From: a virus
Lineage: Duplodnaviria; Heunggongvirae; Uroviricota; Caudoviricetes; Herelleviridae
DNA: 64,000 bases
Virus record (IMG/VR): IMGVR_UViG_2706796071_000001
Strand: one strand, 5' to 3'
Shown: positions 3,611-54,783 of the stretch, one piece after another
Layout: each line of letters begins with the position of its first letter
How positions within the stretch are numbered: the stretch's first letter is position 1
Translations under genes and position numbers: made by a program
The notes under the pieces: generated by a model
Database searches by the model: none
What the model saw: the letters and a program-made list of their open reading frames with translations, nothing else
Told to the model about the DNA's origin: nothing

Positions 3611-3612
3611 TA

Positions 3613-35896: not shown

Positions 35897-36667
35897 ATGC
35901 CTAGGAAAAAAACACATGAAGAATTTGTAGAACAAGTAAAAGATATAGCAGGAAATGAATATACTGTAATAGGACATTATGAACACGCAAATCAAAAGAT
36001 AAAAATGTTTCATAACGAATGTAATGAAGAATTTGAAATAAGACCAAATAATTTCTTACAAGGTAAAAGATGCTCTGCTTGTAGAGGTAAAAGAATAAGT
36101 AAGACACAAGCTAAGTCACTTAATAAAGTTAAAAGACAATTAAAAGAGAAACATGACGGTACTATAGAGATTATAGGTGAGTACGTAAATACACATACCA
36201 AAACAGATTTTAAATGTTTAAAATGTAATCATATTTTCTCTTCAGAACCTAATTCTGTTTTAAGACTAAGTGGGTGTCCTAAATGTAAAGTTTCTAAAGG
36301 TGAAAAACTAATAGCTGAATTTCTTACAGAAAATAATATACGTTTTAAAGAACAGAAGAGATTTAAAGATTGTGTTCATAAAAGACCTTTAATATTTGAT
36401 TTCTACCTATTAGATTTGAATACTTTAATAGAATATGATGGATTACAACATAGTAAGCCAGTAGATTATTTTGGTGGTGTTAAATCTTTTGAAGACCTGA
36501 AATATAGAGATAGTTTAAAAGATGATTACGCAAAAAGAAATAATATTAGGATGGTAAGAATATCTTATAAACAGAAAGAGAAAGATATAATAGAAGAATT
36601 AGAAAGTATTTTGGGTGTGGTATCCCGTCAAGAAAGTAAAGCAGAGAACTTAACACCAAAATGTTGA
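35897..36667 (+). CDS. intron-encoded endonuclease: two tandem Cys-containing DNA-binding modules plus a C-terminal Vsr/DUF559-like nuclease domain
   Basis: The two modules each span about 55 aa (EEFVEQVKD..GNEYTVIGHYEH...CSACRG and a second copy ending CPKC). The C-terminus reads KLIAEFLTENNIRFKEQKRF...IFDFYLLD...LIEYDGLQH, the Vsr-like E-x-D-G-x-x-H pattern. Confidence 0.65.
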   Translation: MPRKKTHEEFVEQVKDIAGNEYTVIGHYEHANQKIKMFHNECNEEFEIRPNNFLQGKRCSACRGKRISKTQAKSLNKVKRQLKEKHDGTIEIIGEYVNTHTKTDFKCLKCNHIFSSEPNSVLRLSGCPKCKVSKGEKLIAEFLTENNIRFKEQKRFKDCVHKRPLIFDFYLLDLNTLIEYDGLQHSKPVDYFGGVKSFEDLKYRDSLKDDYAKRNNIRMVRISYKQKEKDIIEELESILGVVSRQESKAENLTPKC

Positions 36668-36703
36668 GTTAAGATATAGTCTAGTCCGTATATAAATATC
36701 ACG

Positions 36704-38194
36704 AAAGTGACGGTAGTAACGACAAATGAACAAATGAAGAAATTTGTTCAGTCTCGTTTGAACCCTGTATTAGAAAAAGAGTATTTTAGAGATATTGTTG
36801 ATTGGGATAAAGACTCTTTAGGTTTTAAAAAGATAAGAAACTCTAGTTTATTCTTTAGAACAAGTTCTAAAGCAAGTACTGTAGAGGGTGTGGATATTGA
36901 CTACTTATCCTTAGATGAGTATGACAGGGTAAACTTATTAGCAGAGTCATCTGCATTAGAGTCAATGTCTTCATCACCTTTTAAGATTGTGAGAAGATGG
37001 AGCACACCATCTGTACCCGGTATGGGTATACACAAATTATATCAACAATCAGACCAATGGTATTATGGTCATAGATGTCAACATTGTGATTATTTAAATG
37101 AAATGAGTTATAATGATTACAACCCTGATAATCTTGAAGAAAGTGGGAATATGTTATGTGTTAACCCTGAAGGTGTAGATGAACAGGCTAAAACAGTACA
37201 GAATGGTAGTTACCAATTTGTTTGTCAAAAATGTGGTAAACCGCTAGATAGATGGTATAATGGTGAGTGGCATTGTAAGTACCCTGAGCGTACAAAAGGT
37301 AATAAAGGGGTACGAGGATACCTAATAACACAAATGAACGCTGTATGGATTTCTGCGGATGAATTAAAAGAAAAAGAAATGAATACAGAATCTAAGCAAG
37401 CGTTTTACAATTATATTTTGGGTTATCCGTTTGAAGATGTTAAACTTAGAGTTAATGAAGAAGATGTTTATGGTAATAAATCACCTATTGCAGAAACACA
37501 ATTAATGAAACGAGATAGATATTCTCATATAGCTATTGGTATAGATTGGGGAAATACTCATTGGATAACTGTTCATGGTATGTTACCTAATGGTAAGGTA
37601 GACTTAATACGATTGTTCTCTGTTAAAAAGATGACAAGACCTGATTTAGTTGAAGCAGATTTAGAAAAAATAATTTGGGAAATATCTAAGTATGACCCTG
37701 ATATTATAATTGCAGATAATGGAGATTCAGGAAACAATGTTTTAAAACTTATTAATCACTTTGGAAAAGATAAAGTATTTGGATGTACTTATAAATCCTC
37801 CCCTAAATCTACAGGACAGTTGAGACCTGAGTTTAATGAGAACAACAATAGAGTTACAGTAGATAAATTAATGCAAAATAAAAGATACGTACAAGCACTT
37901 AAGACAAAGGATATAAGTGTTTATAGTACAGTAGATGATGATTTAAAAACTTTCTTAAAACATTGGCAAAATGTTGTTATTATGGATGAAGAAGATGAAA
38001 AAACTGGAGAAATGTATCAAGTTATTAAACGTAAAGGTGACGACCATTATGCGCAAGCAAGTGTTTATGCCTATATCGGATTAACAAGAATAAAAGAACT
38101 TCTTAAAGAAGGAAATGGTACAAGCTTTGGTTCTACATTTGTTTCTACTGATTACAATCAAGAAGGAAATAAACAATTCTACTTTGATGAATAG
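36704..38194 (+). CDS. terL: terminase large subunit, exon 2 (Walker B plus RNaseH-like nuclease domain)
   Basis: Walker B reads DIDYLSLDEYD. Nuclease motifs read HIAIGIDWGNTHWITVHG and IIADNGDSGNN. The frame is open upstream to 36680, with no ATG needed. Confidence 0.75.
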   Translation, partial: KVTVVTTNEQMKKFVQSRLNPVLEKEYFRDIVDWDKDSLGFKKIRNSSLFFRTSSKASTVEGVDIDYLSLDEYDRVNLLAESSALESMSSSPFKIVRRWSTPSVPGMGIHKLYQQSDQWYYGHRCQHCDYLNEMSYNDYNPDNLEESGNMLCVNPEGVDEQAKTVQNGSYQFVCQKCGKPLDRWYNGEWHCKYPERTKGNKGVRGYLITQMNAVWISADELKEKEMNTESKQAFYNYILGYPFEDVKLRVNEEDVYGNKSPIAETQLMKRDRYSHIAIGIDWGNTHWITVHGMLPNGKVDLIRLFSVKKMTRPDLVEADLEKIIWEISKYDPDIIIADNGDSGNNVLKLINHFGKDKVFGCTYKSSPKSTGQLRPEFNENNNRVTVDKLMQNKRYVQALKTKDISVYSTVDDDLKTFLKHWQNVVIMDEEDEKTGEMYQVIKRKGDDHYAQASVYAYIGLTRIKELLKEGNGTSFGSTFVSTDYNQEGNKQFYFDE

Positions 38195-39008
38195 AGGTGA
38201 AATAGACTTGACAGATAAATTATTTTATGGTACAATTAGTAATGAAGAAATTAATAAAAGTGTATTGAATTTGTTATTAGGTGAGGAATTATCTTTAGAC
38301 TATGTTTCTAAAAATAGTGATACCTTAGATGTTAAGTACGAACATATCTATAAATCTCTAGGATTCGATAATTTCTTTGATTGTTTTTTATATGCTAATA
38401 GAGAGCCTGAAATAGTCCATAAAGGCGGAGATAAAAATCTTGGTGGACTAAATAAAGTTAAAAGAACTGTTGTTAGAAATGGTAAAGAAATGGAAATGAC
38501 AGTTTACGAAGATGGTAATAAAGATAATGATAGTAAAGAAAAACAAGAAAGTAAAGAAGAAGTTAGTAGAAGTGCAGTAGGAGCAAAAGCTGTTTCTAAT
38601 GGTGAAGAAGGAAAGGTAAACCCTAAAAAGGTAGCAAATTCATTATCTAGTTTAAATAAAAAAGGTGCGGATATATCTCATATTAATACAAACTCATCAT
38701 TATATAAAGAGTTTGTTGATGAGAATGGTGATACACTAGGAATTACATCTTTTAAAAGAACTGAAAATGATATAATATTAGAATCTTATGCAAGTTCACC
38801 CGATTCAGATGGTGTAGGGGCTAGAGCTATTATGGAACTATTACGTTTAAGTATTAAGGAAAATAAAAATGCAGTTGTGTATGACATAGAATTGCCTGAA
38901 GCTATAGAGTATTTAAAAACTTTAGGATTTAAACCTAATAAAGATGGATACATCTTAAGAAAAAAAGATGTAAAACAATTCTTAGGTGATTATAGTGATT
39001 TTATTTAG
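38187..39008 (+). CDS. hypothetical protein, possibly with a GNAT-like C-terminal fold
   Basis: An ATG overlaps the terL stop (gATGAAtag). C-terminus reads DSDGVGARAIMELL. The start position is uncertain. Confidence 0.5.
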   Translation: MNRGEIDLTDKLFYGTISNEEINKSVLNLLLGEELSLDYVSKNSDTLDVKYEHIYKSLGFDNFFDCFLYANREPEIVHKGGDKNLGGLNKVKRTVVRNGKEMEMTVYEDGNKDNDSKEKQESKEEVSRSAVGAKAVSNGEEGKVNPKKVANSLSSLNKKGADISHINTNSSLYKEFVDENGDTLGITSFKRTENDIILESYASSPDSDGVGARAIMELLRLSIKENKNAVVYDIELPEAIEYLKTLGFKPNKDGYILRKKDVKQFLGDYSDFI

Positions 39009-39164
39009 CACTATAATCATCTATTCTATTGTATTTATCTTATACATTATATTAAAAACAATTTATGTAAAGTCTAATATGAATAGAATAGATAACACAA
39101 CTGAATTATTAAAAATATTACAGGAAGATATTGAAGGAAAGATAAAAAAGGAAGGAAGAAATAA

Positions 39165-39644
39165 ATGACTTTAGAAGAAAATAAATTAACATTAGAAGAA
39201 TCAATAACTCCACTTAGTAAAGAAGAGAAAGAGGATAGTATTAAAGAATTTAGTAGTTTATTATGTGAAATGGTAAATAGATTATACAAGTCTTACAATG
39301 TATTCAGACAAGACCCTATGGATGAAACGCAACGACTAGATGGCTCTTTAATGGTCTTTCAAAGTAGACTAAATGACCCTTTAACAGGAGATTTACATGA
39401 CAAGATGTATAAACTTGCTTTTTCAAAACGCATTGATATTTTTGAAGCTAACAAGCAATTCAGAAAAGATGTAGAATCAGGTAAAGCAATTGAGCTAGGT
39501 GATGTAGCTATTATAGATACAGCATTAAGTAATATTCTTTCAGGTAATGAGTTCCAGGGAAGTATATCATTTATGCTTAGAAAAGACTTTGAAGAAAAAG
39601 AACGAATTAGAAAAGAAGAAGAAGAGAAACTTAATAACTTATAA
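39165..39644 (+). CDS. hypothetical protein
   Basis: 159-aa ORF. RBS aaaaggaaggaagaaataaATG. Confidence 0.5.
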   Translation: MTLEENKLTLEESITPLSKEEKEDSIKEFSSLLCEMVNRLYKSYNVFRQDPMDETQRLDGSLMVFQSRLNDPLTGDLHDKMYKLAFSKRIDIFEANKQFRKDVESGKAIELGDVAIIDTALSNILSGNEFQGSISFMLRKDFEEKERIRKEEEEKLNNL

Positions 39645-39685
39645 AAGGGAAGAATTATGAGACTATATAAAATGAGGTATCATAA

Positions 39686-40936
39686 TTGAAAAAGAAACCA
39701 CAAGGAAATGAGATAATCATAACCATAATAACGGTTATGATAGCAGTATTTGTAGTCATTATGACCATATTTTTTAATAAATACCAAGATGCTAAAGAAG
39801 ATAAAGACAGGTATCAGAGATTAGTTGAGATTTATAAAAAAGCAGATGATAATGATGGTGAGACTAAAAAGAAATACGTAAAAAGATTAAATAAAGCTGA
39901 AGAAGAACTTAAAAAAGTAAAGAAAGAAACAAATTATAAAGACTATAATAAGAAGTCAAATAAAGAAAGACAAAAGGAAGATAAAGAAACTAGAGAGAAA
40001 ATATATGATGTAACTGGTGATGATGACTTAATATTAGTAAAAAATAATATTGAGTTTAGTGATAAGGTAGATAAACCTGAAATACTCATTAGTGAAGATG
40101 GAATTGGTACAATAACTGTTCCTGCAAACAGTGGTTATGAAAAACAAACAGTAGGTTCTATTATTACTAGTATATTAGGGTCTCCCTTCTTATCACCCGA
40201 TTCATCTAGTATAGACAGTTCAGGTATTATTAATAGTAATGTTTATCCAAATACAGTAGATAGTATAGTAGAAGATACAAATACTCCTATTGATAGGATA
40301 CCAACAGATAACCCTATTATAACAAACCCAGTTGAACCGACTATACCTTCCGATATATTACCTCCTATTGATAATCCGTCAGTTCCTATATTACCTGAAA
40401 ATCCTGTAGACAATAATTCAGGAAATACAGATGATACAGATAACCCAAATCCACCACCTCCAGGGTATACAGATGAAGATGGAGGTAGAGGCTCAGGTGG
40501 TGGAGGTAATGTTGAACCCTCACCAACGGAAGAACCTTCAGATAACGGTAATACAGGGGGAGGAGATTGGGAAGAAAAACCTGACCCAGGAGAAGAGCCA
40601 TCAGATAATGGTAATACAGGAGACAATGAAGGAGAGGTAACTCCTGAACCTGACCCTACACCTTCTGAGCCTGAACCTGAACCTTCTGAGCCTGAACAAC
40701 CTAATGAAAAACCTGATGAGGGTAATGGTAATGAAGAAAAACCATCAGAACCATCAGATAATCCTGATGAAAATGGAGGATGGGAAACTGAGCCTTCCGA
40801 ACCTGAAACACCTTCTGAGCCGGACGATAAGGTGGACGAAGAGGATAAAAACGAAGATACAACAGAGGATAAACAACCTACAGAACAACCGGACGATAAT
40901 AATACAGATAACGAGGATAAAACTGAAGAGGAGTAA
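39686..40936 (+). CDS. membrane-anchored protein with a long Pro/Asp/Glu-rich repetitive tail (TTG start)
   Basis: N-terminal transmembrane helix IIITIITVMIAVFVVIMTIFF. The C-terminal 200 aa is low-complexity with tandem EEPSDNGNTG and PSEPEP units. A terminator hairpin gaggagtaattactcctc follows the stop. Confidence 0.55.
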   Translation: MKKKPQGNEIIITIITVMIAVFVVIMTIFFNKYQDAKEDKDRYQRLVEIYKKADDNDGETKKKYVKRLNKAEEELKKVKKETNYKDYNKKSNKERQKEDKETREKIYDVTGDDDLILVKNNIEFSDKVDKPEILISEDGIGTITVPANSGYEKQTVGSIITSILGSPFLSPDSSSIDSSGIINSNVYPNTVDSIVEDTNTPIDRIPTDNPIITNPVEPTIPSDILPPIDNPSVPILPENPVDNNSGNTDDTDNPNPPPPGYTDEDGGRGSGGGGNVEPSPTEEPSDNGNTGGGDWEEKPDPGEEPSDNGNTGDNEGEVTPEPDPTPSEPEPEPSEPEQPNEKPDEGNGNEEKPSEPSDNPDENGGWETEPSEPETPSEPDDKVDEEDKNEDTTEDKQPTEQPDDNNTDNEDKTEEE

Positions 40937-40987
40937 TTACTCCTCTTTTTTGTTTGCTATATTAAATAAGAGATAAATATAAAAAAA

Positions 40988-41362
40988 TTGAACATTACGG
41001 TGGTGAAAACTTTGATAGGAATGAATGTTATAACGTCACTATCAGTAGTATTTACCTGTTTAAGTCTTTTAACTTTAATGATTTTTGTTCACAGTAAGTT
41101 CTCCAGTAAAAACGTTTTTGTTTTGTATGTAATTTATGCTATAATAGGTATAGGTACATACATAGTTTTAACTATGTTTCAAACAACATCTGTACTTATT
41201 AAGAATGATGTAATAGATTCCATAGAAAATACTGAACACTATATTGGATTTAATGACCCTATAATAATATTTACTATAAGTTTTATAGGAGCAATACTTG
41301 GAGGAATTTGGTACAAAATGATGAAAATTATTAAAAAGAGTAACTTTAAAGATAAAAAATAA
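40988..41362 (+). CDS. membrane protein
   Basis: 124 aa with 3-4 transmembrane segments. Confidence 0.45.
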   Translation: MNITVVKTLIGMNVITSLSVVFTCLSLLTLMIFVHSKFSSKNVFVLYVIYAIIGIGTYIVLTMFQTTSVLIKNDVIDSIENTEHYIGFNDPIIIFTISFIGAILGGIWYKMMKIIKKSNFKDKK

Positions 41363-41371
41363 AAAAAGACG

Positions 41372-41752
41372 GTGAATAGGTTGATATTCTCTAAAGATAA
41401 AAAATGGGATGAAGCAAAAGATTTCATCAAAGGACAAGGGATGCAAGATAATTGGATAGAGATTGTAGATTATTATAGACAGATAGGTGGAAAACACGTA
41501 GCTGTTTTTATTGCTTTAAACAAAGTAAAATACATGATTCTAGAAGCAACAAAAGACAATAAAGTAATATTAGTAGATAAAGATAATAATATACTATTAG
41601 AAGATTATGATATTGTTATGGAAAGTAAAAAAATGTTTTATTACATTGAAGAACCGTTCGAGGTTAAAATAAATATCCCTCAACATATTAGAGATGTAAC
41701 TTATAATAATACTGTTGTATTAACTACAGTAAGAGGGAGTAGAGGTGACTAG
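41372..41752 (+). CDS. hypothetical protein
   Basis: 126-aa ORF directly before the portal gene. Confidence 0.5.
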   Translation: MNRLIFSKDKKWDEAKDFIKGQGMQDNWIEIVDYYRQIGGKHVAVFIALNKVKYMILEATKDNKVILVDKDNNILLEDYDIVMESKKMFYYIEEPFEVKINIPQHIRDVTYNNTVVLTTVRGSRGD

Positions 41753-41755
41753 TAA

Positions 41756-43447
41756 TTGGCAGATTTATTTAAGCAATTCAGATTAGGTAAGGACTATGGT
41801 AATAATAGTACCATTGCTCAAGTTCCTATTGATGAAGGATTACAAGCTAACATTAAAAAAATAGAACAAGACAATAAAGATTACCAAGACTTAACTAAGT
41901 CTTTATACGGACAGCAACAGGCTTATGCAGAGCCATTTATAGAAATGATGGATACTAATCCTGAATTTAGAGATAAGAGAAGTTACATGAAGAATGAACA
42001 TAATTTACATGATGTTTTGAAAAAGTTTGGTAATAATCCTATTCTCAATGCTATCATACTTACACGTTCAAATCAAGTAGCTATGTATTGTCAACCTGCA
42101 AGATATTCAGAAAAAGGTTTAGGTTTTGAGGTAAGATTAAGAGACCTAGATGCAGAACCAGGTAGAAAAGAAAAAGAAGAAATGAAACGTATAGAAGATT
42201 TTATTGTTAATACAGGTAAAGATAAAGATGTAGATAGAGATTCGTTTCAAACTTTCTGTAAAAAAATTGTTAGAGATACTTATATCTATGACCAGGTTAA
42301 CTTTGAAAAAGTATTTAATAAGAACAATAAAACTAGATTAGAAAAATTTATAGCAGTAGACCCTTCTACTATTTTTTATGCAACAGATAAAAAAGGTAAA
42401 ATTATTAAGGGTGGTAAGAGATTTGTTCAAGTAGTAGATAAAAGAGTAGTAGCTAGTTTTACTTCTAGAGAATTAGCTATGGGTATAAGAAATCCTAGAA
42501 CTGAATTATCTTCTTCAGGGTACGGATTATCAGAAGTAGAGATAGCTATGAAAGAATTTATTGCCTATAATAATACTGAGTCATTTAACGATAGATTTTT
42601 CTCACATGGCGGTACTACAAGAGGTATTTTACAAATACGTTCAGACCAACAACAATCACAACATGCATTAGAGAACTTCAAGCGTGAATGGAAATCAAGT
42701 TTATCGGGTATCAATGGTTCATGGCAAATTCCAGTGGTAATGGCAGATGATATTAAATTTGTTAATATGACACCAACTGCTAATGATATGCAATTTGAGA
42801 AATGGTTAAATTATCTTATTAATATTATATCTGCTTTATATGGTATTGACCCTGCAGAAATTGGTTTCCCTAATAGAGGTGGGGCTACAGGTTCTAAAGG
42901 TGGCTCTACTCTAAATGAGGCTGACCCAGGTAAAAAACAACAACAATCTCAAAATAAAGGTTTACAACCTTTACTTAGATTTATTGAAGATTTAGTTAAT
43001 AGACATATTATATCAGAATATGGAGATAAATATACATTCCAATTCGTAGGTGGAGATACTAAGAGTGCTACAGACAAACTTAATATTCTTAAACTAGAAA
43101 CTCAAATATTTAAAACAGTTAATGAGGCTAGAGAAGAACAAGGTAAGAAACCTATTGAAGGTGGAGACATTATCTTAGATGCTTCATTCTTACAAGGAAC
43201 AGCACAATTACAACAAGATAAACAATATAATGATGGTAAACAAAAAGAACGTTTACAAATGATGATGAGTTTACTAGAAGGAGATAATGACGATTCAGAA
43301 GAAAGTCAATCAACAGACTCTAGTAATGCTGATAAAGAAATAGGAACAGATGCACAAATAAAAGGTGACGATAATGTTTACCGGACTCAAACATCTAATA
43401 AAGGTCAAGGAAGAAAAGGAGAAAAATCTTCTGACTTTAAACATTAA
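41756..43447 (+). CDS. portal protein
   Basis: 563 aa, sitting between the terminase and prohead-protease genes. RBS gaggtga. A strong terminator follows. Confidence 0.8.
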   Translation: MADLFKQFRLGKDYGNNSTIAQVPIDEGLQANIKKIEQDNKDYQDLTKSLYGQQQAYAEPFIEMMDTNPEFRDKRSYMKNEHNLHDVLKKFGNNPILNAIILTRSNQVAMYCQPARYSEKGLGFEVRLRDLDAEPGRKEKEEMKRIEDFIVNTGKDKDVDRDSFQTFCKKIVRDTYIYDQVNFEKVFNKNNKTRLEKFIAVDPSTIFYATDKKGKIIKGGKRFVQVVDKRVVASFTSRELAMGIRNPRTELSSSGYGLSEVEIAMKEFIAYNNTESFNDRFFSHGGTTRGILQIRSDQQQSQHALENFKREWKSSLSGINGSWQIPVVMADDIKFVNMTPTANDMQFEKWLNYLINIISALYGIDPAEIGFPNRGGATGSKGGSTLNEADPGKKQQQSQNKGLQPLLRFIEDLVNRHIISEYGDKYTFQFVGGDTKSATDKLNILKLETQIFKTVNEAREEQGKKPIEGGDIILDASFLQGTAQLQQDKQYNDGKQKERLQMMMSLLEGDNDDSEESQSTDSSNADKEIGTDAQIKGDDNVYRTQTSNKGQGRKGEKSSDFKH

Positions 43448-43452
43448 TTAAT

Positions 43453-43489
43453 AAGCCTAGAATAAATCTAGGCTTTGTTTATTTTTTTT
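43453..43489 (+). terminator. rho-independent terminator after the portal gene
   Basis: Hairpin aagcctagaataaatctaggctt, followed by tgtttattttttttg. Confidence 0.65.
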
Positions 43490-43640
43490 GTAATTTAATT
43501 TTGATAAAGGTAATAACTATGATATACTATATGTAATTGATATTAATACATAAAAAATATTAATATTTCACTTACAAGTTATTATTGTTATATTATTAAC
43601 GTAAAAGTAAATAAAATAACAAGTGGAGGTGTAGACACCT

Positions 43641-46920: not shown

Positions 46921-46953
46921 AGGGATAAACTTAGGGTTTATCCCTTTTTTATT
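46921..46953 (+). terminator. rho-independent terminator after the capsid gene
   Basis: Hairpin agggataaacttagggtttatccct, followed by ttttttatt. Confidence 0.65.
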
Positions 46954-46981
46954 AAAATAAACTTGAAGGGATTTAATAAAT

Positions 46982-47278
46982 ATGTTATACTATAAGAAAC
47001 TATTAGATAAAAAAATGGCTACTGTTTATGGTACAGTGGAGATTGACAAAGATGGAGTAGTCAAAGGATTAACTAAAGAACAAGAAAAAGAATTTGCCAA
47101 TGTTCCAGGTTTTGAATTTGAAGAAGAAAAGAAAACTACTAGAAAACAATCAGCTTCTACTAGTAAAGAAGAAGAGCCTAAGGAAGAGGAAAAGAAAGCC
47201 TCTACTAGAAAAACTACAAATACTACTAGAAAATCTACAGCACGTAAAACAACAGCCAAAAAAGATGAAAATAAGTAA
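46982..47278 (+). CDS. small Lys-rich protein
   Basis: 98 aa with a basic, low-complexity C-terminus. Confidence 0.45.
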   Translation: MLYYKKLLDKKMATVYGTVEIDKDGVVKGLTKEQEKEFANVPGFEFEEEKKTTRKQSASTSKEEEPKEEEKKASTRKTTNTTRKSTARKTTAKKDENK

Positions 47279-47290
47279 AGGGTGAATTAA

Positions 47291-48199: not shown

Positions 48200-48212
48200 G
48201 GAGGGTTAGAAA

Positions 48213-49091
48213 ATGGAAAAACCGTATATGATAGGAGCCAACTCTAACCCTAATATTATTAATAAGTCAACAACATATACTACTACAACACAAGCAGATG
48301 AACAAGATAAACCTAAGTATACTACTAGATTAGAGTTCGATACTATTGATATGATTAGGTTTATTAATGACCGAGGTATAAAAGTACTATGGGAAGAAGC
48401 ATATTTCTGTCCGTGCCTTAACCCTGATACAGGTCATCCTAGAGTAGATTGTCCTAGATGTCATGGTAAAGGTATTGCTTATTTACCTCCTAAAAAGACT
48501 ATAATGGCAATACAGTCTCAAGAGAAAGGAACTAACCAATTAGATATAGGAATATTAGATACAGGTACTGCAATAGGTACAACTCAATTAGAAAAGAGAA
48601 TCTCCTATAGAGATAGATTTACTGTTCCTGAGGTATTAATGCCTCAACAAATGATTTATTTTGTAAATAAAGATAGGATTAAAAAAGGTATTCCATTATA
48701 CTACGATGTAAAAGAAGTAACTTATATAGCCACTCAAGATGGTACAGTCTATGAAGAAGATTATGAAATTAAGAATAACAGATTGTATTTAAATGAAAAA
48801 TATGAGAATCATACAGTAACTTTAAAGATACTTATGACTTTAAGATATGTAGTATCAGATATACTAAAGGAAAGTCGTTATCAATATACTAAATTTAATC
48901 AACCTAAATCAAAATTTGAAAACTTACCTCAAAAATTACTTCTTAAAAGGGAAGATGTTATTGTACTACAAGACCCTTATAAAGTTAATGATGGTATAGA
49001 AGAAGACCTAGAAATTCAAGTAGATGACCCTAAAGCTTCCGCATCTAATCCTAGTAATTTAGGTGGATTCTTCGGAGGTGCATTTAAATAA
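48213..49091 (+). CDS. virion structural protein
   Basis: 292-aa ORF. RBS aaggagggttagaaaATG. Confidence 0.55.
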   Translation: MEKPYMIGANSNPNIINKSTTYTTTTQADEQDKPKYTTRLEFDTIDMIRFINDRGIKVLWEEAYFCPCLNPDTGHPRVDCPRCHGKGIAYLPPKKTIMAIQSQEKGTNQLDIGILDTGTAIGTTQLEKRISYRDRFTVPEVLMPQQMIYFVNKDRIKKGIPLYYDVKEVTYIATQDGTVYEEDYEIKNNRLYLNEKYENHTVTLKILMTLRYVVSDILKESRYQYTKFNQPKSKFENLPQKLLLKREDVIVLQDPYKVNDGIEEDLEIQVDDPKASASNPSNLGGFFGGAFK

Positions 49092-49711
49092 TGCCAGTTC
49101 ACGGAAAGAGACCTAATTTATTTAAAAATAAAAACTATAAGCAGGTAGGTAAGAGAACCATTGATGGTATGCGTTCAGAAGTTCTTGATAAGTTACAAGC
49201 AACAGCACAACAAGTAGAGAATACCAGTATTAAACGTATGCCTACTTACCTACAGGTAACAGAGAAAAAGTTAGAAAAAGAAGGAGTAGTAGACCTTAAA
49301 AAAGCTTTTGCTCACTCATCTAAAAAGAAAACTAGTAAAGATGGTGGATGGTATTTAACCGTACCAATCCGCATTAAAACTAGTAGAATGAATAACAGTA
49401 CTTACCAAGATATGAGGACTTTAAAAGTAGATAGAGGTACAGGTTCAGTTTCTAAGATAACTGATTATCTAGAAGGACGTAGAAAGAATGTAAGTCATCC
49501 TTCAATGAAACCGGAACCTATGACCCATAATATGACTAAAGTTAAAAGAGGAAAGCAATCTTCTTACTTTATATTTAGAACTGTTTCTAGTAAGTCACCT
49601 GCTAGTTCTTGGATACTTAATAGGGATAAAGTTAATGAGAATAATTTCTCTAAAACAACTCTAAAAACTGTTAAGCAATTAATGAACTGGAAGATGAAAA
49701 ATTTAAATTAA
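49091..49711 (+). CDS. virion structural protein
   Basis: 206 aa, translationally coupled (taATG). Confidence 0.5.
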   Translation: MPVHGKRPNLFKNKNYKQVGKRTIDGMRSEVLDKLQATAQQVENTSIKRMPTYLQVTEKKLEKEGVVDLKKAFAHSSKKKTSKDGGWYLTVPIRIKTSRMNNSTYQDMRTLKVDRGTGSVSKITDYLEGRRKNVSHPSMKPEPMTHNMTKVKRGKQSSYFIFRTVSSKSPASSWILNRDKVNENNFSKTTLKTVKQLMNWKMKNLN

Positions 49712-49729
49712 GAGGAGGGTCAGTATTAA

Positions 49730-50566
49730 ATGGCAATAACATCAGTTGATTCATATTTATTATCAGAAATAAAGCCTAGACTTAACACTGTGCTAGAGAA
49801 TTGTTATATTATAGATGAAGTTTTAAAAGACTTTGATTATCAAACTAGAGAGAGCTTTAAAGAAGCTTTCTGTGGTAAGAATGCACAACATGAAGTAACG
49901 GTAGGATTTAACTTCCCAAAATTTAAAAATAACTATGAAGCTCATTACTTGATACAATTAGGTCAAGGACAAGAGACAAAAAACTCTTTAGGGAGTATTC
50001 AGTCATCTTACTTTGAGGCAACAGGAGATACCTTAGTCGAATCTTCTACAGCAATAAGAGAAGATGATAAGTTAGTTTTTACTGTTTCTAAACCTATAGG
50101 AGAGTTAATAAAAGTAGAAGATATAGAGTTTGCCAAATATGATAATCTTCAAGTCGAAGGTAATAAGGTATCATTTAAGTACCAAACAAATGAAGATTAT
50201 GAGAATTATAATGCTAATATTATCTTTACTGAAAAGAAAAATGATTCTAAAGGTTTAGTAAAAGGATTCACAGTTGAAGAACAAGTAACAGTTGTAGGTC
50301 TATCATTTAATGTAGACGTTGCACGATGTTTGGATGCTGTATTAAAAATGATTTTAATATCTATGAGAGATAGTATAGAGGAGCAACAAACATTCCAATT
50401 ACAGAATTTGTCCTTTGGTGATATTGCACCAATAATAGAAGATGGTGACTCAATGATTTTTGGTAGACCAACAATTATTAAGTACACAAGTTCTCTAGAC
50501 CTGGATTATACTATTACACAAGATATTAATAAACTAACTTTTAAAGAAAGAAAGGATTGGAAGTAG
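49730..50566 (+). CDS. virion structural protein
   Basis: 278 aa. RBS aagaggagggtcagtattaaATG. Confidence 0.55.
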   Translation: MAITSVDSYLLSEIKPRLNTVLENCYIIDEVLKDFDYQTRESFKEAFCGKNAQHEVTVGFNFPKFKNNYEAHYLIQLGQGQETKNSLGSIQSSYFEATGDTLVESSTAIREDDKLVFTVSKPIGELIKVEDIEFAKYDNLQVEGNKVSFKYQTNEDYENYNANIIFTEKKNDSKGLVKGFTVEEQVTVVGLSFNVDVARCLDAVLKMILISMRDSIEEQQTFQLQNLSFGDIAPIIEDGDSMIFGRPTIIKYTSSLDLDYTITQDINKLTFKERKDWK

Positions 50567-50567
50567 G

Positions 50568-50783
50568 ATGGCTAGAAAAAAGACACCTGAAAATAACACT
50601 CCTAAATTCAATGGTTATGTTCATATAGATACATTCCTTGATACTGCAAAAACCCTTTTTAACATGAGGGATTCACAAGTAGCAGGATTTAAAGCTTATA
50701 TGGAAGGTAGTCATTATTTGTTTAGTGAGCAAGAATTCTTACCATCATTAGAGAAGTATTTAGGTAGGAAATTAGATATATAA
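50568..50783 (+). CDS. small structural-module protein
   Basis: 71 aa. RBS ggattggaagtaggATG. Confidence 0.45.
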   Translation: MARKKTPENNTPKFNGYVHIDTFLDTAKTLFNMRDSQVAGFKAYMEGSHYLFSEQEFLPSLEKYLGRKLDI

Positions 50784-50809
50784 TAACATTCAGATAAGGA
50801 GAATTAAAT

Positions 50810-52573
50810 ATGGCAGTAGAACCATTCCCAAGAAGACCTATTACCCGTCCTCATGCATCTATTGAAGTAGATACTTCAGGTATCGGTGGCTCAGCAGGTT
50901 CAAGTGAAAAAGTATTTTGCTTAATCGGTCAGGCTGAAGGCGGAGAACCAAATACAGTTTACGAATTACGTAACTATGCACAAGCTAAACGTTTATTCCG
51001 TTCAGGAGAATTGCTTGATGCAATTGAATTAGCATGGGGCTCAAACCCTAACTATACAGCAGGTAAGATTTTAGCTATGCGTATAGAAGATGCTAAACCT
51101 GCAACAGCAGAAGTTGGTGGACTAAAAGTAACTTCTAAAATATACGGTAATGTTGCTAACAACATTCAAGTAGGATTGGAAAAGAACACACTAAGTGATT
51201 CATTACGTTTAAGAGTAATATTCCAAGATGACCGTTTCAATGAGGTTTATGATAATATCGGTAATATCTTCACAATCAAGTATAAAGGAGAAGAAGCTAA
51301 CGCAACTTTTTCTGTAGAACATGATGAAGAAACTCAAAAAGCAAGTCGTTTAGTATTAAAAGTTGGAGACCAAGAAGTTAAGTCATATGATTTAACTGGT
51401 GGAGCTTATGACTATACTAATGCTATTATTACAGACATTAATCAATTACCTGATTTTGAAGCTAAATTATCACCTTTTGGAGATAAGAACTTAGAATCTA
51501 GTAAATTAGATAAAATTGAAAATGCAAATATTAAAGACAAAGCTGTATATGTTAAAGCAGTTTTCGGTGACTTAGAAAAACAAACAGCCTATAACGGTAT
51601 TGTATCTTTCGAGCAACTTAATGCAGAAGGTGAAGTACCAAGTAATGTAGAGGTTGAAGCAGGAGAAGAATCAGCTACAGTAACTGCTACTTCACCTATT
51701 AAAACTATTGAACCGTTTGAATTAACTAAGTTAAAAGGCGGTACTAACGGTGAACCACCTGCTACATGGGCAGATAAATTAGATAAATTTGCACATGAAG
51801 GCGGATACTACATTGTTCCATTATCATCTAAACAATCAGTTCATGCAGAGGTAGCTTCTTTCGTTAAAGAACGTTCTGACGCAGGAGAACCAATGAGAGC
51901 TATTGTTGGTGGAGGATTCAATGAATCTAAAGAACAATTGTTCGGTAGACAAGCATCATTATCTAATCCACGTGTATCATTAGTAGCTAACTCAGGTACT
52001 TTTGTTATGGATGATGGACGTAAAAACCATGTACCTGCTTATATGGTAGCCGTAGCTTTAGGTGGTCTTGCAAGTGGTTTAGAAATCGGTGAATCAATCA
52101 CATTCAAACCATTACGTGTAAGTTCATTAGACCAAATCTATGAATCAATAGACTTAGATGAATTAAATGAAAATGGTATTATTAGTATAGAGTTTGTTCG
52201 TAACCGTACTAATACATTCTTCAGAATCGTTGATGACGTAACTACATTCAACGATAAATCAGACCCAGTTAAGGCTGAAATGGCTGTTGGAGAAGCTAAT
52301 GACTTCTTAGTAAGTGAGCTTAAAGTTCAACTTGAAGACCAATTTATTGGTACTCGTACTATCAATACAAGTGCTTCAATTATTAAAGACTTTATTCAAT
52401 CTTACTTGGGTCGTAAGAAACGTGATAATGAAATTCAAGACTTCCCTGCTGAAGACGTACAAGTTATTGTTGAAGGTAACGAAGCAAGAATTTCAATGAC
52501 AGTTTACCCAATCAGAAGCTTCAAGAAAATCTCTGTTAGCTTGGTTTACAAGCAACAGACATTACAAGCCTAA
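50810..52573 (+). CDS. tail sheath protein
   Basis: 587 aa. RBS aaggagaattaaatATG. The size and position match the sheath of phage K-like myoviruses. Confidence 0.85.
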   Translation: MAVEPFPRRPITRPHASIEVDTSGIGGSAGSSEKVFCLIGQAEGGEPNTVYELRNYAQAKRLFRSGELLDAIELAWGSNPNYTAGKILAMRIEDAKPATAEVGGLKVTSKIYGNVANNIQVGLEKNTLSDSLRLRVIFQDDRFNEVYDNIGNIFTIKYKGEEANATFSVEHDEETQKASRLVLKVGDQEVKSYDLTGGAYDYTNAIITDINQLPDFEAKLSPFGDKNLESSKLDKIENANIKDKAVYVKAVFGDLEKQTAYNGIVSFEQLNAEGEVPSNVEVEAGEESATVTATSPIKTIEPFELTKLKGGTNGEPPATWADKLDKFAHEGGYYIVPLSSKQSVHAEVASFVKERSDAGEPMRAIVGGGFNESKEQLFGRQASLSNPRVSLVANSGTFVMDDGRKNHVPAYMVAVALGGLASGLEIGESITFKPLRVSSLDQIYESIDLDELNENGIISIEFVRNRTNTFFRIVDDVTTFNDKSDPVKAEMAVGEANDFLVSELKVQLEDQFIGTRTINTSASIIKDFIQSYLGRKKRDNEIQDFPAEDVQVIVEGNEARISMTVYPIRSFKKISVSLVYKQQTLQA

Positions 52574-52645
52574 TCTAGGTGATGGAGTACCTGGATTAGG
52601 TACTCCTATTAATATAATTTGAATACTTTAGGAGAGTGAATACAG

Positions 52646-52984
52646 ATGGCATCAGAAGCTAAACAAACCGTCCATACTGGTAATACCGTCCTACTTATGA
52701 TTAAAGGTAAACCGGTAGGAAGAGCACAATCAGCATCAGGTCAACGTGAATACGGTACAACTGGTGTATACGAAATCGGTTCTATCATGCCTCAAGAACA
52801 CGTATACTTACGTTATGAAGGTACAATTACAGTAGAACGTTTACGTATGAAAAAAGAAAACTTTGCAGATTTAGGATATGCTTCACTTGGTGAAGAAATT
52901 CTTAAGAAAGATATCATTGATATTTTAGTAGTAGATAACTTAACTAAACAAGTTATTATCTCATATCATGGTTTAACTAAATAG
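52646..52984 (+). CDS. tail tube protein, 5' exon as called. The true 3' end probably continues through two introns.
   Basis: 112-aa ORF directly after the sheath gene. RBS taggagagtgaatacagATG. Its stop codon falls inside a region homologous to the start of a second intron-like copy. Confidence 0.7.
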   Translation: MASEAKQTVHTGNTVLLMIKGKPVGRAQSASGQREYGTTGVYEIGSIMPQEHVYLRYEGTITVERLRMKKENFADLGYASLGEEILKKDIIDILVVDNLTKQVIISYHGLTK

Positions 52985-53276
52985 ACCCCTTGTACAGTGA
53001 TGTGCATTGAATAATACCTTAAATTGCTAGAACATCGTAAAGCTAACTAAACTACAACGTAACTTGAAAGAGTAAACGTGAATGTTGAGAAATCAGAAAA
53101 AATTAGTTAGATGGTATATGGTTAAATCCTAAGTACTATATAATCGACAATTAGCATCGAAGCTCTTGTAAAATGGAGAACGTTCAACGACTATAATAGG
53201 TAAGTCTTAGTTACACATTAAGATTATGGTATAGTCTAGTCCCTTTAAAATATATCGAAAGATAGGGTATAAACGG
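52985..53276 (+). other. group I intron-like element A (ORF-less, about 290 nt)
   Basis: Contains the P7/S-like core TAAGATTATGGTATAGTCTAGTCC (about 53219-53243). A second copy at 53353-53647 shares 60-80% identity at its ends and a diverged middle. It ends ...GGGTATAAACGG. Confidence 0.5.
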
Positions 53277-53352
53277 TTCAGCAAATAACTACAATGAAAC
53301 TTGGCAGACAAATGAAATTGTAACAGAAGAAATTGAGTTTAGTTACCTTTAA
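53277..53352 (+). CDS. candidate internal exon, or 3' exon, of the tail tube gene (about 24 codons)
   Basis: Frame 53278-53352 reads SANNYNETWQTNEIVTEEIEFSYL with no ATG and no RBS. It is flanked by the two intron-like elements. Its stop sits at the position homologous to the exon-1 stop. Confidence 0.35.
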
Positions 53353-53647
53353 CTAATAGAGGCTATGTTTGGTGACAAGCATAGAAAACACTTTAAATTG
53401 CGTGAAAGTCTTAAAGACTAGATAACTACAAAGTAACCTGAAAGGGTAAGCTTGAATGTTGAGAAATCAGAAAAAATATCTAGTATAGTATATGGTTAAA
53501 CCCTAAGTACAATAAAATAGATGATACGCAGGCAAGCCTACGAGAGTGGGAAGCTTCAACGACTATAATAAGTGAGTCTTAGTTACACATTAAGATTATG
53601 GTATAGTCTACTCCCTTTAAAATATATCGAAAGATAGGGTACAAAGG
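53353..53647 (+). other. group I intron-like element B (ORF-less, about 295 nt)
   Basis: Core TAAGATTATGGTATAGTCTACTCC at about 53590-53614. It ends ...GGGTACAAAGG. A short downstream coding segment (53648 to about 53674) and a strong terminator follow. Confidence 0.5.
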
Positions 53648-53686
53648 ACAGCATCAGATAAAGCTAGAACTTAAATTTCTTATTAA

Positions 53687-53718
53687 GACCTAACAATAAA
53701 AGTTAGGTCTTTTTTTAT
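53687..53718 (+). terminator. rho-independent terminator closing the sheath/tube unit
   Basis: Hairpin agacctaacaataaaagttaggtct followed by a T7 run. Confidence 0.7.
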
Positions 53719-53746
53719 TGACAATATATAAAAGTTATGGTACACT
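53718..53746 (+). promoter_or_regulatory. sigma-A-like promoter for the free-standing endonuclease gene (weak -10)
   Basis: TTGACAatatataaaagttatggTACACT. Confidence 0.4.
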
Positions 53747-53769
53747 TATGATATATTAATAATAGGAAG

Positions 53770-54783
53770 GTGATATCAATGATATATTCAGATAAAGTAT
53801 TAGGTTCTCACGGAGAACGATTAGTAGATTCAATTTTAGGTTTTAATAGTATGAAGTATAAACGAGAATATTCTTTTAAGAACAGCATAGGTACAAAACA
53901 AAGAATGGATTTTTTAGTAGAATACCAAGGAAAATTTTATTGTATTGAATACATGGGTGAGCAACATTATAGACAAGTATTTAATTTAGATTTTGATAGA
54001 ATAAAATTACTTGACAGAATTAAAAAAGAGTATTGTGATAGTAATAATATAATTTATATAGATATAAGCTATAAAAATAGAACTTTGGAGAAAGTATATC
54101 AAATTTTAAGAAACTACTTTACAGAAATTAAGAAACCTGATACAGTAGAAGTATACACTACTTCTTTAAAATTTAATGGAGATATTAATGTCTACACAAA
54201 GAATGGGCGTTACTTATATACAGGTAGTTATAATGATATTATTAATAAGTATGAGCTTACTGATAGTAATTTTTATAAATGTTTAATTGGAGAACTAAAC
54301 TCTACATCAGGATATAAATTTAGCTTAGAGGATGAAGAACAAGAATTAGAAAGAAAGACTTATGTGGAGACAAGAAGAATTAAAAAAGAAGAGAGTTTTA
54401 AGAAAGCACCAAGAAAAACAACATCAATAGCTATGTATGATTTAGATAAAAATGAAGAAACTATATTTAAATCTATTAAAGAGTGTGAAATTGAGACTGG
54501 AATAAAAGGGGTATCTTCTTACTTATATGGTAATATTGATAGACTTACTTTGAATAATAAAATGTTTAGACTAGTAGATGAAGAATACAAATATACACCT
54601 GAAGAAGCACGTAAAAGAAGCCAAAAGAAAATGATTAAAGGAACTCACATTGTTACAGGTGAAACAGTTGAGGGAACTGTTAATGAAGTAGCTAGATTAA
54701 TTAATGCATCCGCACCAAATATAAGTAAAGTTTTAAAAGGTAAAAGTAATAGTTGTAAAAAGTACAAATTTATTTACCTATAA
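53770..54783 (+). CDS. free-standing homing-endonuclease-like protein: N-terminal Vsr/DUF559-like nuclease domain plus C-terminal NUMOD-type HTH motifs
   Basis: N-terminus GERLVDSILGF...RMDFLVEYQGKFYCIEYMGEQHY aligns with the C-terminal domain of the terL intron ORF. The C-terminus has IKECEIETGIKGVSSYLYG and VNEVARLINASAPNISKVLKG, which look like NUMOD helix-turn-helix motifs. Confidence 0.6.
   Translation: MISMIYSDKVLGSHGERLVDSILGFNSMKYKREYSFKNSIGTKQRMDFLVEYQGKFYCIEYMGEQHYRQVFNLDFDRIKLLDRIKKEYCDSNNIIYIDISYKNRTLEKVYQILRNYFTEIKKPDTVEVYTTSLKFNGDINVYTKNGRYLYTGSYNDIINKYELTDSNFYKCLIGELNSTSGYKFSLEDEEQELERKTYVETRRIKKEESFKKAPRKTTSIAMYDLDKNEETIFKSIKECEIETGIKGVSSYLYGNIDRLTLNNKMFRLVDEEYKYTPEEARKRSQKKMIKGTHIVTGETVEGTVNEVARLINASAPNISKVLKGKSNSCKKYKFIYL

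What the first reader, a model, noticed from the sequence alone, without database searches (positions are those of the whole stretch)
35897..54783. Two endonuclease genes share a Vsr/DUF559-like catalytic domain in shuffled architectures, one inside the terL intron and one free-standing beside the twin introns
The C-terminal 110 aa of the intron ORF read EKLIAEFLTENNIRFKEQKRFKD...LIFDFYLLD...LIEYDGLQH...NNIRMVRISYKQKEK. This aligns residue by residue with the N-terminal domain of ORF 53770-54783, which reads GERLVDSILGFNSMKYKREYSFKN...RMDFLVEYQGKFYCIEYMGEQHY...NNIIYIDISYKNR. The conserved D ... E-Y-x-G-x-Q-H pattern resembles Vsr/DUF559-type PD-(D/E)XK nucleases. I recall this fold being used by a small class of homing endonucleases.

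The intron copy carries two N-terminal Cys-containing DNA-binding repeats. The free-standing copy instead carries C-terminal NUMOD-like helix-turn-helix motifs. It starts only about 120 bp after the twin intron-like elements, which fits a collaborative (trans) homing arrangement for the ORF-less introns.
Basis: partly seen in the sequence, partly recalled or inferred. Interest (0 to 1): 0.6.

Follow-up and report, generated by a model that had tools for sequence, protein, structure and literature searches.

The report
Two Vsr-like homing endonucleases, shuffled modules
Two selfish DNA-cutting genes in a Staphylococcus phage, one inside an intron of the DNA-packaging gene and one just after the twice-interrupted tail-tube gene, share a Vsr-type nuclease module joined to different DNA-binding modules; this is real but mostly already annotated or published.

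Summary
The window is Staphylococcus phage phiIPLA-RODI (Kayvirus), bases 1-64000.

**Observation: confirmed.**
- Residues 133-227 of the terL-intron ORF align with residues 13-104 of ORF 53770-54783 (BLASTP E 6e-8; profile-profile E 1e-15).
- The residues E, D, E, H, D and K are invariant across both families.
- The intron ORF has two treble-clef zinc-finger repeats. The free-standing ORF has three I-HmuI NUMOD-like modules.
- The true start of the free-standing ORF is ATG 53779, not GTG 53770.

**The twin elements are group I introns** (52974-53275 and 53350-53647). Removing them gives a tail-tube protein identical to the intronless one.

**Trans (collaborative) homing is plausible but unproven.**
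- Fifteen of 19 related loci, spread over five genera, carry a nuclease gene of this kind in the same slot. In 14 of them the tail-tube gene has introns.
- The exception, EW6, is synonymously recoded across exactly the intron-bearing stretch.

**Novelty is low.** GenBank already labels the intron ORF a VSR homing endonuclease. The tail-tube introns and their neighbouring nuclease are published for phages 812 and Twort. New here are the Vsr-like assignment of the free-standing gene and the extent of module permutation.

The parts
35307..35651 (+). terL exon 1 (115 codons, ends ...YTFP)
   Evidence: Alignment with the intronless terL of phage 812 breaks here. The last exon base is T.
35652..36721 (+). 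Group I intron in terL (1070 nt)
   Evidence: It is absent, precisely, from phage 812 terL. The exon ends in U and the intron ends in G. There are weak partial Rfam Intron_gpI hits at 35668-35795 and 36601-36704. Its 3' end is 77% identical to the 3' end of tail-tube intron 1.
35897..36667 (+). Intron-encoded endonuclease, 256 aa (GenBank AJA42030: 'group I intron VSR homing endonuclease')
35909..36289 (+). Two treble-clef zinc-finger repeats (about aa 5-66 and 73-131); putative DNA-binding modules
   Evidence: Pfam DUF4379 at E 1.5e-7 and CapR. The repeats align with each other at E 2e-7. Each shows the same helix-strand pattern in the model. C59, C62, C107, C127 and C130 are conserved.
36290..36631 (+). 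Vsr-like nuclease domain of the intron ORF (aa 132-245); invariant E136, D168, E179, H185, D205, K208
36722..38194 (+). terL exon 2
   Evidence: Pfam GpA_ATPase.
52646..52973 (+). Tail-tube gene exon 1
52974..53275 (+). ORF-less group I intron 1 (302 nt)
   Evidence: Rfam RF00028 over the full model, 32.3 bits, E 1e-6. It is absent, precisely, in SAP1 and Team1.
53276..53349 (+). Tail-tube exon 2
   Evidence: The spliced product is identical to the 142-aa Team1 protein.
53350..53647 (+). ORF-less group I intron 2 (298 nt), 81% identical to intron 1
   Evidence: Rfam RF00028, 49.1 bits (gathering score 50), E 9e-12.
53648..53674 (+). Tail-tube exon 3 (TASDKART, stop)
53685..53718 (+). Intrinsic terminator of the tail-tube transcript
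   Evidence: It is the only terminator-like site in 52500-55100. It is also present in loci without the nuclease gene.
53718..53746 (+). Promoter-like site TTGACA-17-TACACT (with TG) upstream of the free-standing ORF
   Evidence: This is a consensus match only.
53779..54783 (+). Free-standing endonuclease gene, 334 aa (GenBank 'Ioh'; RefSeq 'intron encoded nuclease')
53797..54123 (+). Vsr-like nuclease domain of the free-standing ORF (aa 7-115, counted from ATG 53779); invariant E13, D44, E57, H63, D79, K82
54175..54777 (+). Three I-HmuI NUMOD-like DNA-binding modules (about aa 133-183, 214-265 and 283-333)
54785..54815 (+). Conserved hairpin and promoter-like element at the 3' edge of the nuclease-gene cassette
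   Evidence: It is found after nuclease genes of four architectures in 9 other loci and is absent from loci without the gene. It contains TTGACC-17-TACTAT.

Best explanation
Both genes encode modular homing endonucleases. They share one catalytic module, a Vsr-like (EDxHD-type) branch of the PD-(D/E)XK fold, joined to different DNA-binding modules.

**The terL gene.** The 256-aa protein (two zinc-finger repeats followed by the nuclease) lies inside the terL group I intron. It most likely cuts intronless terL near the YTFP|TNEQ junction, so that repair copies the intron and its ORF into the cut genome. This is classical intron homing.

**The tail-tube gene.** The 334-aa protein (nuclease followed by three NUMOD-like modules) is a free-standing gene with its own promoter-like site. 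It is inserted between the tail-tube terminator and the next gene.
- It most likely cuts competing phage genomes, during co-infection, within the last ~100 nt of the tail-tube gene.
- Repair then copies the nuclease gene together with the neighbouring ORF-less introns (trans, or collaborative, homing).
- The introns, or in one phage synonymous recoding, protect the carrier genome from being cut.

**Shown:** the shared domain, the fold, the invariant residues, the intron boundaries, the gene's position, and co-occurrence across genera.

**Inferred:** nuclease activity, the target sites, and the protective role of the introns.

**Confidence by part:** about 0.95 for the shared Vsr-like domain, about 0.85 that both are homing endonucleases, and about 0.55 for trans homing specifically. 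The overall figure is a compromise between these.
For: **Domain homology**
- BLASTP E 6e-8.
- hhalign E 1.1e-15.

**Fold**
- E, D, E, H, D and K are invariant in 49 sequences spanning both families.
- These residues correspond in order to I-Bth0305I E170, D196, H213, D222 and Vsr E25, D51, H69, D97 (PMC3239194).

**terL intron**
- It is excised precisely relative to phage 812.
- Homologues sit between split terminase pieces in other phages (PMC11878797).

**Tail-tube introns**
- The spliced protein is identical to the intronless Team1 protein.
- Rfam group I hits at E 1e-6 and 9e-12.

**Linkage of introns and nuclease gene**
- In 19 loci examined (18, plus Twort), 15 carry a nuclease gene with this domain in the same intergenic slot. 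Fourteen of those 15 have 1-4 introns.
- The two loci with neither introns nor the gene are Team1 and JYL01.
- In phage 812 mutants the introns and the nuclease gene were lost together (PMC6445280).

**Signs of mobility**
- RODI against Silviavirus SA11: introns, exon 2, exon 3 and terminator are 94-99% identical, against 76-87% for the flanks. The high-identity patch ends at the point where the nuclease gene is inserted in RODI.

**Target region**
- EW6 has the nuclease gene but no introns. Its tail-tube gene is about 98% identical to Team1 up to nt 312 and only 75% identical over nt 313-429, with one amino-acid change. That stretch is exactly where the introns sit in other phages.
Against: - There is no biochemical evidence of cleavage and no known target site.
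- Neither window protein hits Pfam Vsr, DUF559 or DUF2726, or NCBIfam.
- A profile of the domain reaches only E 0.6 against 3hrl by sequence, and does not reach 3r3p or 1vsr.
- SA11, and probably Romulus and Remus, have both introns but no nuclease gene.
- EW6 has the nuclease gene but no introns.
- Nuclease-gene class and intron positions are only partly associated.
- The surveyed loci were picked from BLAST lists, not sampled at random, so co-occurrence cannot be given a statistic.
- The recoded patch in EW6 could be a co-conversion tract from a divergent donor rather than selected immunity.
Confidence: 0.6

Rival explanations
1. The free-standing nuclease homes on its own ('intronless homing'). 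It cuts near its own insertion point and drags flanking DNA along. The introns are then independent passengers, or remnants of introns that once encoded their own nucleases (nuclease-gene turnover). They are not part of a cooperative system and do not mark the target site.
For: - SA11 has introns without the nuclease gene, and EW6 has the gene without introns.
- Intron positions do not map one-to-one onto nuclease-gene classes.
- Turnover has been proposed as an alternative origin for such loci (PMC10448857).
- The cassette has a conserved 3' boundary element whatever the intron content.
Against: - Fourteen of 15 loci with the nuclease gene have introns within 100 nt of the gene's 3' end, in five genera.
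- Recoding in EW6 is confined to the intron-bearing stretch.
- The introns and the gene were lost together in phage 812 mutants.
Confidence: 0.25
2. The free-standing gene is mainly a weapon against co-infecting phages, or a DNA-processing nuclease (marker exclusion or degradation of competitor DNA), rather than an element that promotes its own spread.
For: - It sits next to an essential structural gene and has its own promoter-like site.
- Nuclease genes commonly flank essential phage genes (PMC10448857).
Against: - Marker exclusion and homing are two outcomes of the same cut.
- Its patchy distribution, its exchange among five genera, and the high-identity transferred patch point to mobility.
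- Most kayviruses lack it (span classes), so it is dispensable.
Confidence: 0.1
3. The shared domain is catalytically inactive in one or both proteins, which then act as DNA-binding proteins or splicing helpers (maturases).
For: - There is no direct Pfam nuclease hit for either window protein.
- The two ORF-less introns lie nearby.
Against: - All candidate catalytic residues (E, D, E, H, D, K) are invariant across 49 sequences at 25% mean column identity.
- No RNA-binding module was detected.
Confidence: 0.05

Closest known systems
I-Bth0305I and the EDxHD / Vsr-like homing endonuclease family (Dassa et al. 2009, PMC2677866; Taylor et al. 2011, PMC3239194; PDB 3R3P)
   Same: - The order of conserved acidic and histidine residues is the same.
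[quoted passage not shown]
- They have a bipartite build: DNA-binding modules plus a nuclease.
   Different: - No sequence-level hit to 3R3P or Vsr was found.
- The intron ORF uses treble-clef zinc fingers rather than NUMOD helix-turn-helix repeats.
- The free-standing ORF has the reverse order, with the nuclease N-terminal as in I-TevI and I-HmuI.
- There is an extra invariant Glu on strand 3 and an extra invariant Lys on helix 2.
- Relatives fall into Pfam DUF2726, DUF559 and DUF5889 rather than Vsr.
PHROG 559 'HNH endonuclease' proteins with a VSR signature in terL introns of Bastillevirinae (PMC11878797); KSAP7 'group I intron-associated VSR homing endonuclease'
   Same: - The intron ORF matches PHROG 559 at E 3.9e-75.
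- The host gene is the same (terL).
- The build is the same: zinc fingers followed by a Vsr-like nuclease.
   Different: The phage subfamily differs (Twortvirinae). Identity to the Bacillus phage proteins is about 37-40%.
Tail-tube introns with an adjacent 'Ioh' / putative intron nuclease in kayviruses 812, A3R, 676Z, Fi200W and P4W (PMC6445280), and the three-intron orf142 of phage Twort (Landthaler & Shub 1999, as cited in PMC11878797)
   Same: - The gene is the same, and the nuclease gene occupies the same downstream slot.
- The 812 protein shares the nuclease and NUMOD part (35% identity, E 2e-47).
- Twort ORF018 carries the same domain.
   Different: - The RODI introns lie at different sites (after nt 328 and 401/402, against 355 and 391 in 812) and are unrelated in sequence to those of 812.
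- The RODI protein lacks the N-terminal NUMOD module of the 812 protein.
Collaborative (trans) homing: F-CphI with the psbA intron of cyanophage S-PM2, T3/T7-like phages, and T4 mobE with I-TevIII (PMC3984707, PMC2790892, PMC10448857)
   Same: A free-standing nuclease gene lies beside a gene that carries ORF-less group I introns.
   Different: - The nuclease family differs: Vsr-like here, against Endo VII-like or HNH.
- Here there are several introns per gene, at 8 sites, with several nuclease architectures.
- The cleavage site is untested here.
I-HmuI (PDB 1U3E) and I-TevI
   Different: The catalytic domain is Vsr-like, not HNH or GIY-YIG.

Membership tests
EDxHD / Vsr-like homing endonucleases (prototype I-Bth0305I) | Vsr-like nuclease fold | tested here: met
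   [not shown]
EDxHD / Vsr-like homing endonucleases (prototype I-Bth0305I) | Conserved composite catalytic residues E...D...x...H...D | tested here: met
   E136, D168, (E179), H185 and D205 in the intron ORF, and E13, D44, (E57), H63 and D79 in the free-standing ORF, are invariant in 49 sequences. They occur in the same order and on the same secondary-structure elements as I-Bth0305I E170, D196, N208, H213 and D222. The correspondence is by order and spacing. No residue-level superposition was made.
EDxHD / Vsr-like homing endonucleases (prototype I-Bth0305I) | Detectable sequence similarity to Vsr or to family members | tested here: not met
   There is no Pfam Vsr hit at E<=1. 3r3p and 1vsr do not appear in phmmer or profile searches of PDB at E<=10. 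The best hit is 3hrl (DUF559) at E 0.6.
EDxHD / Vsr-like homing endonucleases (prototype I-Bth0305I) | N-terminal NUMOD DNA-binding region followed by a C-terminal nuclease | tested here: not met
   The intron ORF has a C-terminal nuclease, but its DNA-binding part is zinc fingers. The free-standing ORF has an N-terminal nuclease and C-terminal NUMOD-like modules.
EDxHD / Vsr-like homing endonucleases (prototype I-Bth0305I) | Site-specific double-strand cleavage next to the intron insertion site | not testable with these tools
   This needs a cleavage assay.
Pfam DUF2726 / DUF559 (Vsr-like branch of the PD-(D/E)XK clan) | Profile match above the curated threshold | tested here: inconclusive
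   [not shown]
HNH endonucleases (RefSeq label of gp068; PHROG 559 name) | HNH / beta-beta-alpha-metal motif | tested here: not met
   There is no HNH-family Pfam hit at E<=1. The nuclease domain has the alpha-beta-beta-beta-alpha-beta fold. The label appears to be a misannotation.
Group I introns (terL intron and the twin tail-tube elements) | Rfam RF00028 match at the gathering score (50 bits) | tested here: inconclusive
   Intron 2 scores 49.1 bits, E 9e-12. Intron 1 scores 32.3 bits, E 1e-6. The terL intron gives only partial weak hits. Nothing reaches the gathering score in the whole-window scan.
Group I introns (terL intron and the twin tail-tube elements) | Precise removal restores the uninterrupted gene; U before the 5' splice site; G as the last intron base | tested here: met
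   The terL junction matches intronless phage 812. The spliced tail-tube protein is identical to that of Team1. All three introns follow T|...G|.
Group I introns (terL intron and the twin tail-tube elements) | Self-splicing in vitro or in vivo | not testable with these tools
   Both halves of TerL, and TmpA, were detected by mass spectrometry in the related phage fRuSau02 (PMC5618024). That phage's terL intron may differ.
Collaborative (trans) homing systems | Free-standing nuclease gene adjacent to a gene with ORF-less intron(s) | tested here: met
   The ORF starts 132 bp after intron 2 and is separated from the tail-tube gene by a terminator and a promoter-like site.
Collaborative (trans) homing systems | Nuclease gene and intron inherited together | tested here: inconclusive
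   Fourteen of 15 loci with the gene have introns. One has none, and one or more loci have introns without the gene. The sample was not random. Joint loss in phage 812 mutants is on record.
Collaborative (trans) homing systems | [quoted passage not shown] | not testable with these tools
   The only hint is indirect: the recoding in EW6 is confined to nt 313-429.

The most novel reading that the evidence does not exclude
The last ~100 nt of the Twortvirinae tail-tube gene would be an arms-race hotspot.
- A set of free-standing Vsr-like endonucleases, built by permuting one nuclease module with NUMOD-like or other DNA-binding modules, would each cut a different site in this stretch.
- ORF-less group I introns (at least 8 insertion sites, up to 4 per gene), or synonymous recoding, would serve as allele-specific immunity.
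- This would be the first trans-homing system for the EDxHD family. It would also be a natural series in which target specificity can be read off from module order.
Probability: 0.35. Interest if true: 0.6.

Novelty: new member of a known kind. Interest (0 to 1): 0.38.

Why it matters
**Annotation.** The result corrects database labels. RefSeq calls gp068 an HNH endonuclease, and the free-standing gene is variously labelled 'Ioh', 'intron encoded nuclease' or 'HNH endonuclease'. Both are Vsr-like (EDxHD-type) enzymes.

**Evolution of homing endonucleases.** One nuclease module is found N-terminal, central or C-terminal to NUMOD-like or zinc-finger modules in closely related phages. This is a clean natural example of how these enzymes change specificity by swapping modules.

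**An experimental system.** These staphylococcal phages are therapeutic candidates and are easy to grow. They offer intronless, one- to four-intron and recoded tail-tube alleles for testing whether introns act as immunity against a neighbouring nuclease.

**Phage therapy.** Such cassettes are a source of recombination between cocktail phages.

Tried and rejected
- Searching the word-indexed protein database with the 128-aa domain alone found a single protein. The full-length queries worked.
- Rfam at gathering thresholds found no introns in the window. Rfam at the E-value threshold on 2.6 kb also missed the twin introns. Only scans of each intron alone recovered them.
- I considered that ORF 53770 might lie inside a long intron, with the 46-aa ORF at 54840 as the last tail-tube exon. 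I rejected this: exon 3 (53648-53674) completes a protein identical to the intronless one, and a terminator follows it.
- My spliced aligner breaks the 3'-most intron of some phages into two pieces around a spurious 3-8 nt exon, and it fails on Metroid's divergent 3' end. The site positions ~406-414 and the Metroid pattern are therefore approximate.
- Landthaler & Shub 1999 (PMC22036) is not held in the library.

Full report
**Identity of the window.** The window is identical in sequence and coordinates to Staphylococcus phage phiIPLA-RODI (KP027446.1 / NC_028765.1; Herelleviridae, Twortvirinae, Kayvirus), bases 1-64000. GenBank already annotates ORF 35897-36667 as 'group I intron VSR homing endonuclease'. 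RefSeq renames it 'HNH endonuclease'. ORF 53779-54783 is 'Ioh' in GenBank and 'intron encoded nuclease' in RefSeq.

- Both ORFs translate as quoted.
- BLASTP aligns aa 133-227 of the intron ORF with aa 13-104 of ORF 53770: 31% identity, E 6e-8.
- Profiles of the two families (57 and 7 sequences) align with 98.6% probability, E 1.1e-15, over 104 columns.
- Both proteins hit the same PHROGs over this domain.
- A six-frame scan with a domain HMM finds only these two copies in the window.
- Minus-strand ORFs overlapping the two genes are short and have no support.
- Homologues start MIYSD, and the GTG at 53770 lies in the ribosome-binding site. The gene therefore starts at ATG 53779 (334 aa).

**What the shared domain is.**
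- Neither protein hits Vsr, DUF559 or any nuclease family in Pfam or NCBIfam. Sequence searches of PDB are also negative.
- AlphaFold models are confident: pLDDT 91.5 for the intron ORF and 85.5 for the free-standing ORF. Both show an alpha-beta-beta-beta-alpha-beta-alpha core.
- Of 34 domain relatives scanned singly, 19 hit DUF2726, 12 hit DUF5889 and 10 hit DUF559.
- Across 49 sequences of both families the invariant residues are G, E, L, D, F, E, G, H, D and K. In the intron ORF the candidate catalytic ones are E136, D168, E179, H185, D205 and K208. In the free-standing ORF they are E13, D44, E57, H63, D79 and K82.
- Their order matches the composite EDxHD residues of I-Bth0305I (E170, D196, N208, H213, D222) and of Vsr (E25, D51, H64, H69, D97) (PMC3239194). 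An invariant Glu at the strand-3 position was also noted for the family by Dassa et al. (PMC2677866).
- The fold and motif claims are therefore supported. Strict sequence-level membership of the I-Bth0305I family is not.

**The other modules.**
- The intron ORF has two repeats that align with each other (E 2e-7) and match the DUF4379 treble-clef zinc finger and CapR. The Cys pairs are conserved.

**The introns.**
- Against intronless terL of phage 812, the terL intron is 35652-36721 (1070 nt), with the protein junction YTFP|TNEQ.
- The twin elements are 52974-53275 and 53350-53647 and are 81% identical to each other. Removing them gives a 142-aa tail-tube protein identical to that of intronless phage Team1.
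- Scanned alone, they match Rfam Intron_gpI at E 1e-6 and at E 9e-12 (49.1 bits; gathering score 50).
- All three introns follow a U and end in G.
- Exon 3 is followed by the only terminator-like site in the region, then by a TTGACA-17-TACACT promoter-like site, then by the ORF. The nuclease gene really is free-standing.

**Comparative survey.** I fetched 18 further tail-tube loci (RODI itself makes 19) and mapped exons with a spliced aligner and nuclease domains with the HMM.
- Introns occupy at least eight sites between nt 328 and ~414 of the 429-nt gene, with up to four in one gene (DELF3, CIFT_MRSA32).
- Fifteen loci have a gene with this nuclease domain in the same slot. They come from Kayvirus, Silviavirus, Sepunavirus, Sciuriunavirus and Twortvirus.
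- In Twort it is ORF018, directly downstream of the classical three-intron orf142 (PMC11878797 identifies orf142 as the tail-tube gene).
- Module order varies:

| Arrangement | Phages |
|---|---|
| Nuclease + NUMOD | RODI, Metroid, Koomba-kaat_1 |
| Nuclease + X | PSU5, PG-2021_16, B2-102, DELF3 |
| X + nuclease | EW6, 80B |
| X + nuclease + NUMOD | 812 |

- X is itself NUMOD-like. It is 42-46% identical whether it lies before or after the nuclease. Z, the N-terminal module of the SAP1-type proteins, has no Pfam match.
- A phmmer search of 1.84 billion representatives finds 1,787 proteins with the domain. It is mostly C-terminal. In about 7 of the best 150 it is N-terminal.

**Evidence bearing on mechanism.**
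- Fourteen of the 15 loci with the nuclease gene have introns. Team1 and JYL01 have neither. SA11 has both RODI-type introns but no nuclease gene.
- RODI and SA11 are 94-99% identical from intron 1 to the terminator, but only 76-87% identical on either side. The patch ends where the nuclease gene is inserted in RODI. This looks like a transferred tract.
- EW6 has the nuclease gene and no introns. Its tail-tube gene is about 98% identical to Team1 up to nt 312 and 75% identical from 313 to 429, with one amino-acid change. That is the stretch where introns sit elsewhere.
- In the literature, phage 812 mutants lost the two introns and the adjacent nuclease gene together, and phage K lacks both (PMC6445280).
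- This fits trans (collaborative) homing as defined for other phages (PMC3984707, PMC10448857).
- It does not exclude plain intronless homing with the introns as passengers. The sample was not random, and no cleavage site is known.

**The terL side.** Homologues of the intron ORF occur in 451 phage records from many genera. Several are in or beside terL. Metagenomic homologues lie between split terminase pieces. Bastillevirinae terL introns carry PHROG 559 proteins with a VSR signature (PMC11878797). This is ordinary intron homing by a known lineage.

**Verdict.** Most elements are already annotated or published. New here are:
- the assignment of the free-standing 'Ioh' genes to the Vsr-like fold;
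- the demonstration that one nuclease module is permuted with DNA-binding modules at a single locus;
- the count of intron sites;
- the recoded EW6 allele.

Interest is moderate to low.

Noticed in passing
window 54785-54815; also L003 3307, L006 3299, L007 2369, L009 2835, L010 3400, L012 3142, L014 4640, L021 2715: A conserved hairpin, CCTTGACC-N4-ATCAAGG, followed by GTTATG(C/T)TA(T/C)TAT, sits directly after the stop codon of the free-standing nuclease gene in four different protein architectures. It is missing from loci without the gene. It overlaps a promoter-like site and may restore transcription of the downstream 46-aa gene.
   Followed up: partly
L007 (phage EW6, MT080598.1) 847-1275: This is an intronless tail-tube gene next to a nuclease gene. 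Nt 313-429 are 75% identical to Team1, against about 98% upstream, with only one amino-acid change. The recoded stretch is exactly the region that carries introns in other phages.
   Followed up: partly
Tail-tube loci L003-L020 and L026; window 52974-53647: At least eight group I intron insertion sites lie within nt 328-414 of a 429-nt gene. DELF3 and CIFT_MRSA32 have up to four introns. Phage 812 introns at nearby sites are unrelated in sequence to the RODI introns.
   Followed up: partly
L026 (Twort AY954970.1) 2126-3439: Twort ORF018 (437 aa) lies just downstream of the classical three-intron orf142 and carries the same nuclease domain at aa 127-235. The 1999 GenBank deposit AF132670 ends inside this gene.
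   Followed up: partly
window 53224-53275 and 36669-36721: The last ~53 nt of tail-tube intron 1 are 77% identical to the 3' end of the terL intron. This suggests that the intron cores are related.
   Followed up: no
L004 (SA11) against window 51900-55480: A patch running from intron 1 to the terminator is 94-99% identical between a Kayvirus and a Silviavirus, while flanking genes are 76-87% identical. This is a likely horizontally transferred tract.
   Followed up: partly
window 35897-36667 (NC_028765 gp068): RefSeq labels the intron ORF 'HNH endonuclease', and PHROG 559 carries the same name. No HNH signature is detectable, and the fold is Vsr-like.
   Followed up: yes
L023 (Logan SRR28260002 contig) 444-3632: Two zinc-finger/CapR-type genes flank a fragment of a GpA_ATPase terminase gene. 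The first is P0008, a 43%-identical homologue of the RODI intron ORF. This suggests a terL with several introns.
   Followed up: no
window about 33800-34250: GC and AT skew change sign near 34 kb, and gene orientation flips there (minus-strand genes before, plus-strand structural module after).
   Followed up: no
window 30818-31048 and 8503-8574, minus strand: Four tRNA genes: three in a cluster and one alone.
   Followed up: no
window 53231-53641 (query positions 632-1042): Short stretches of the intron sequence, about 95% identical, match Bacillus phages Nemo and MrBubbles. A separate 47-nt stretch (window 53148-53194) matches Serratia phage 2050HW. These may be conserved intron core segments.
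   Followed up: no
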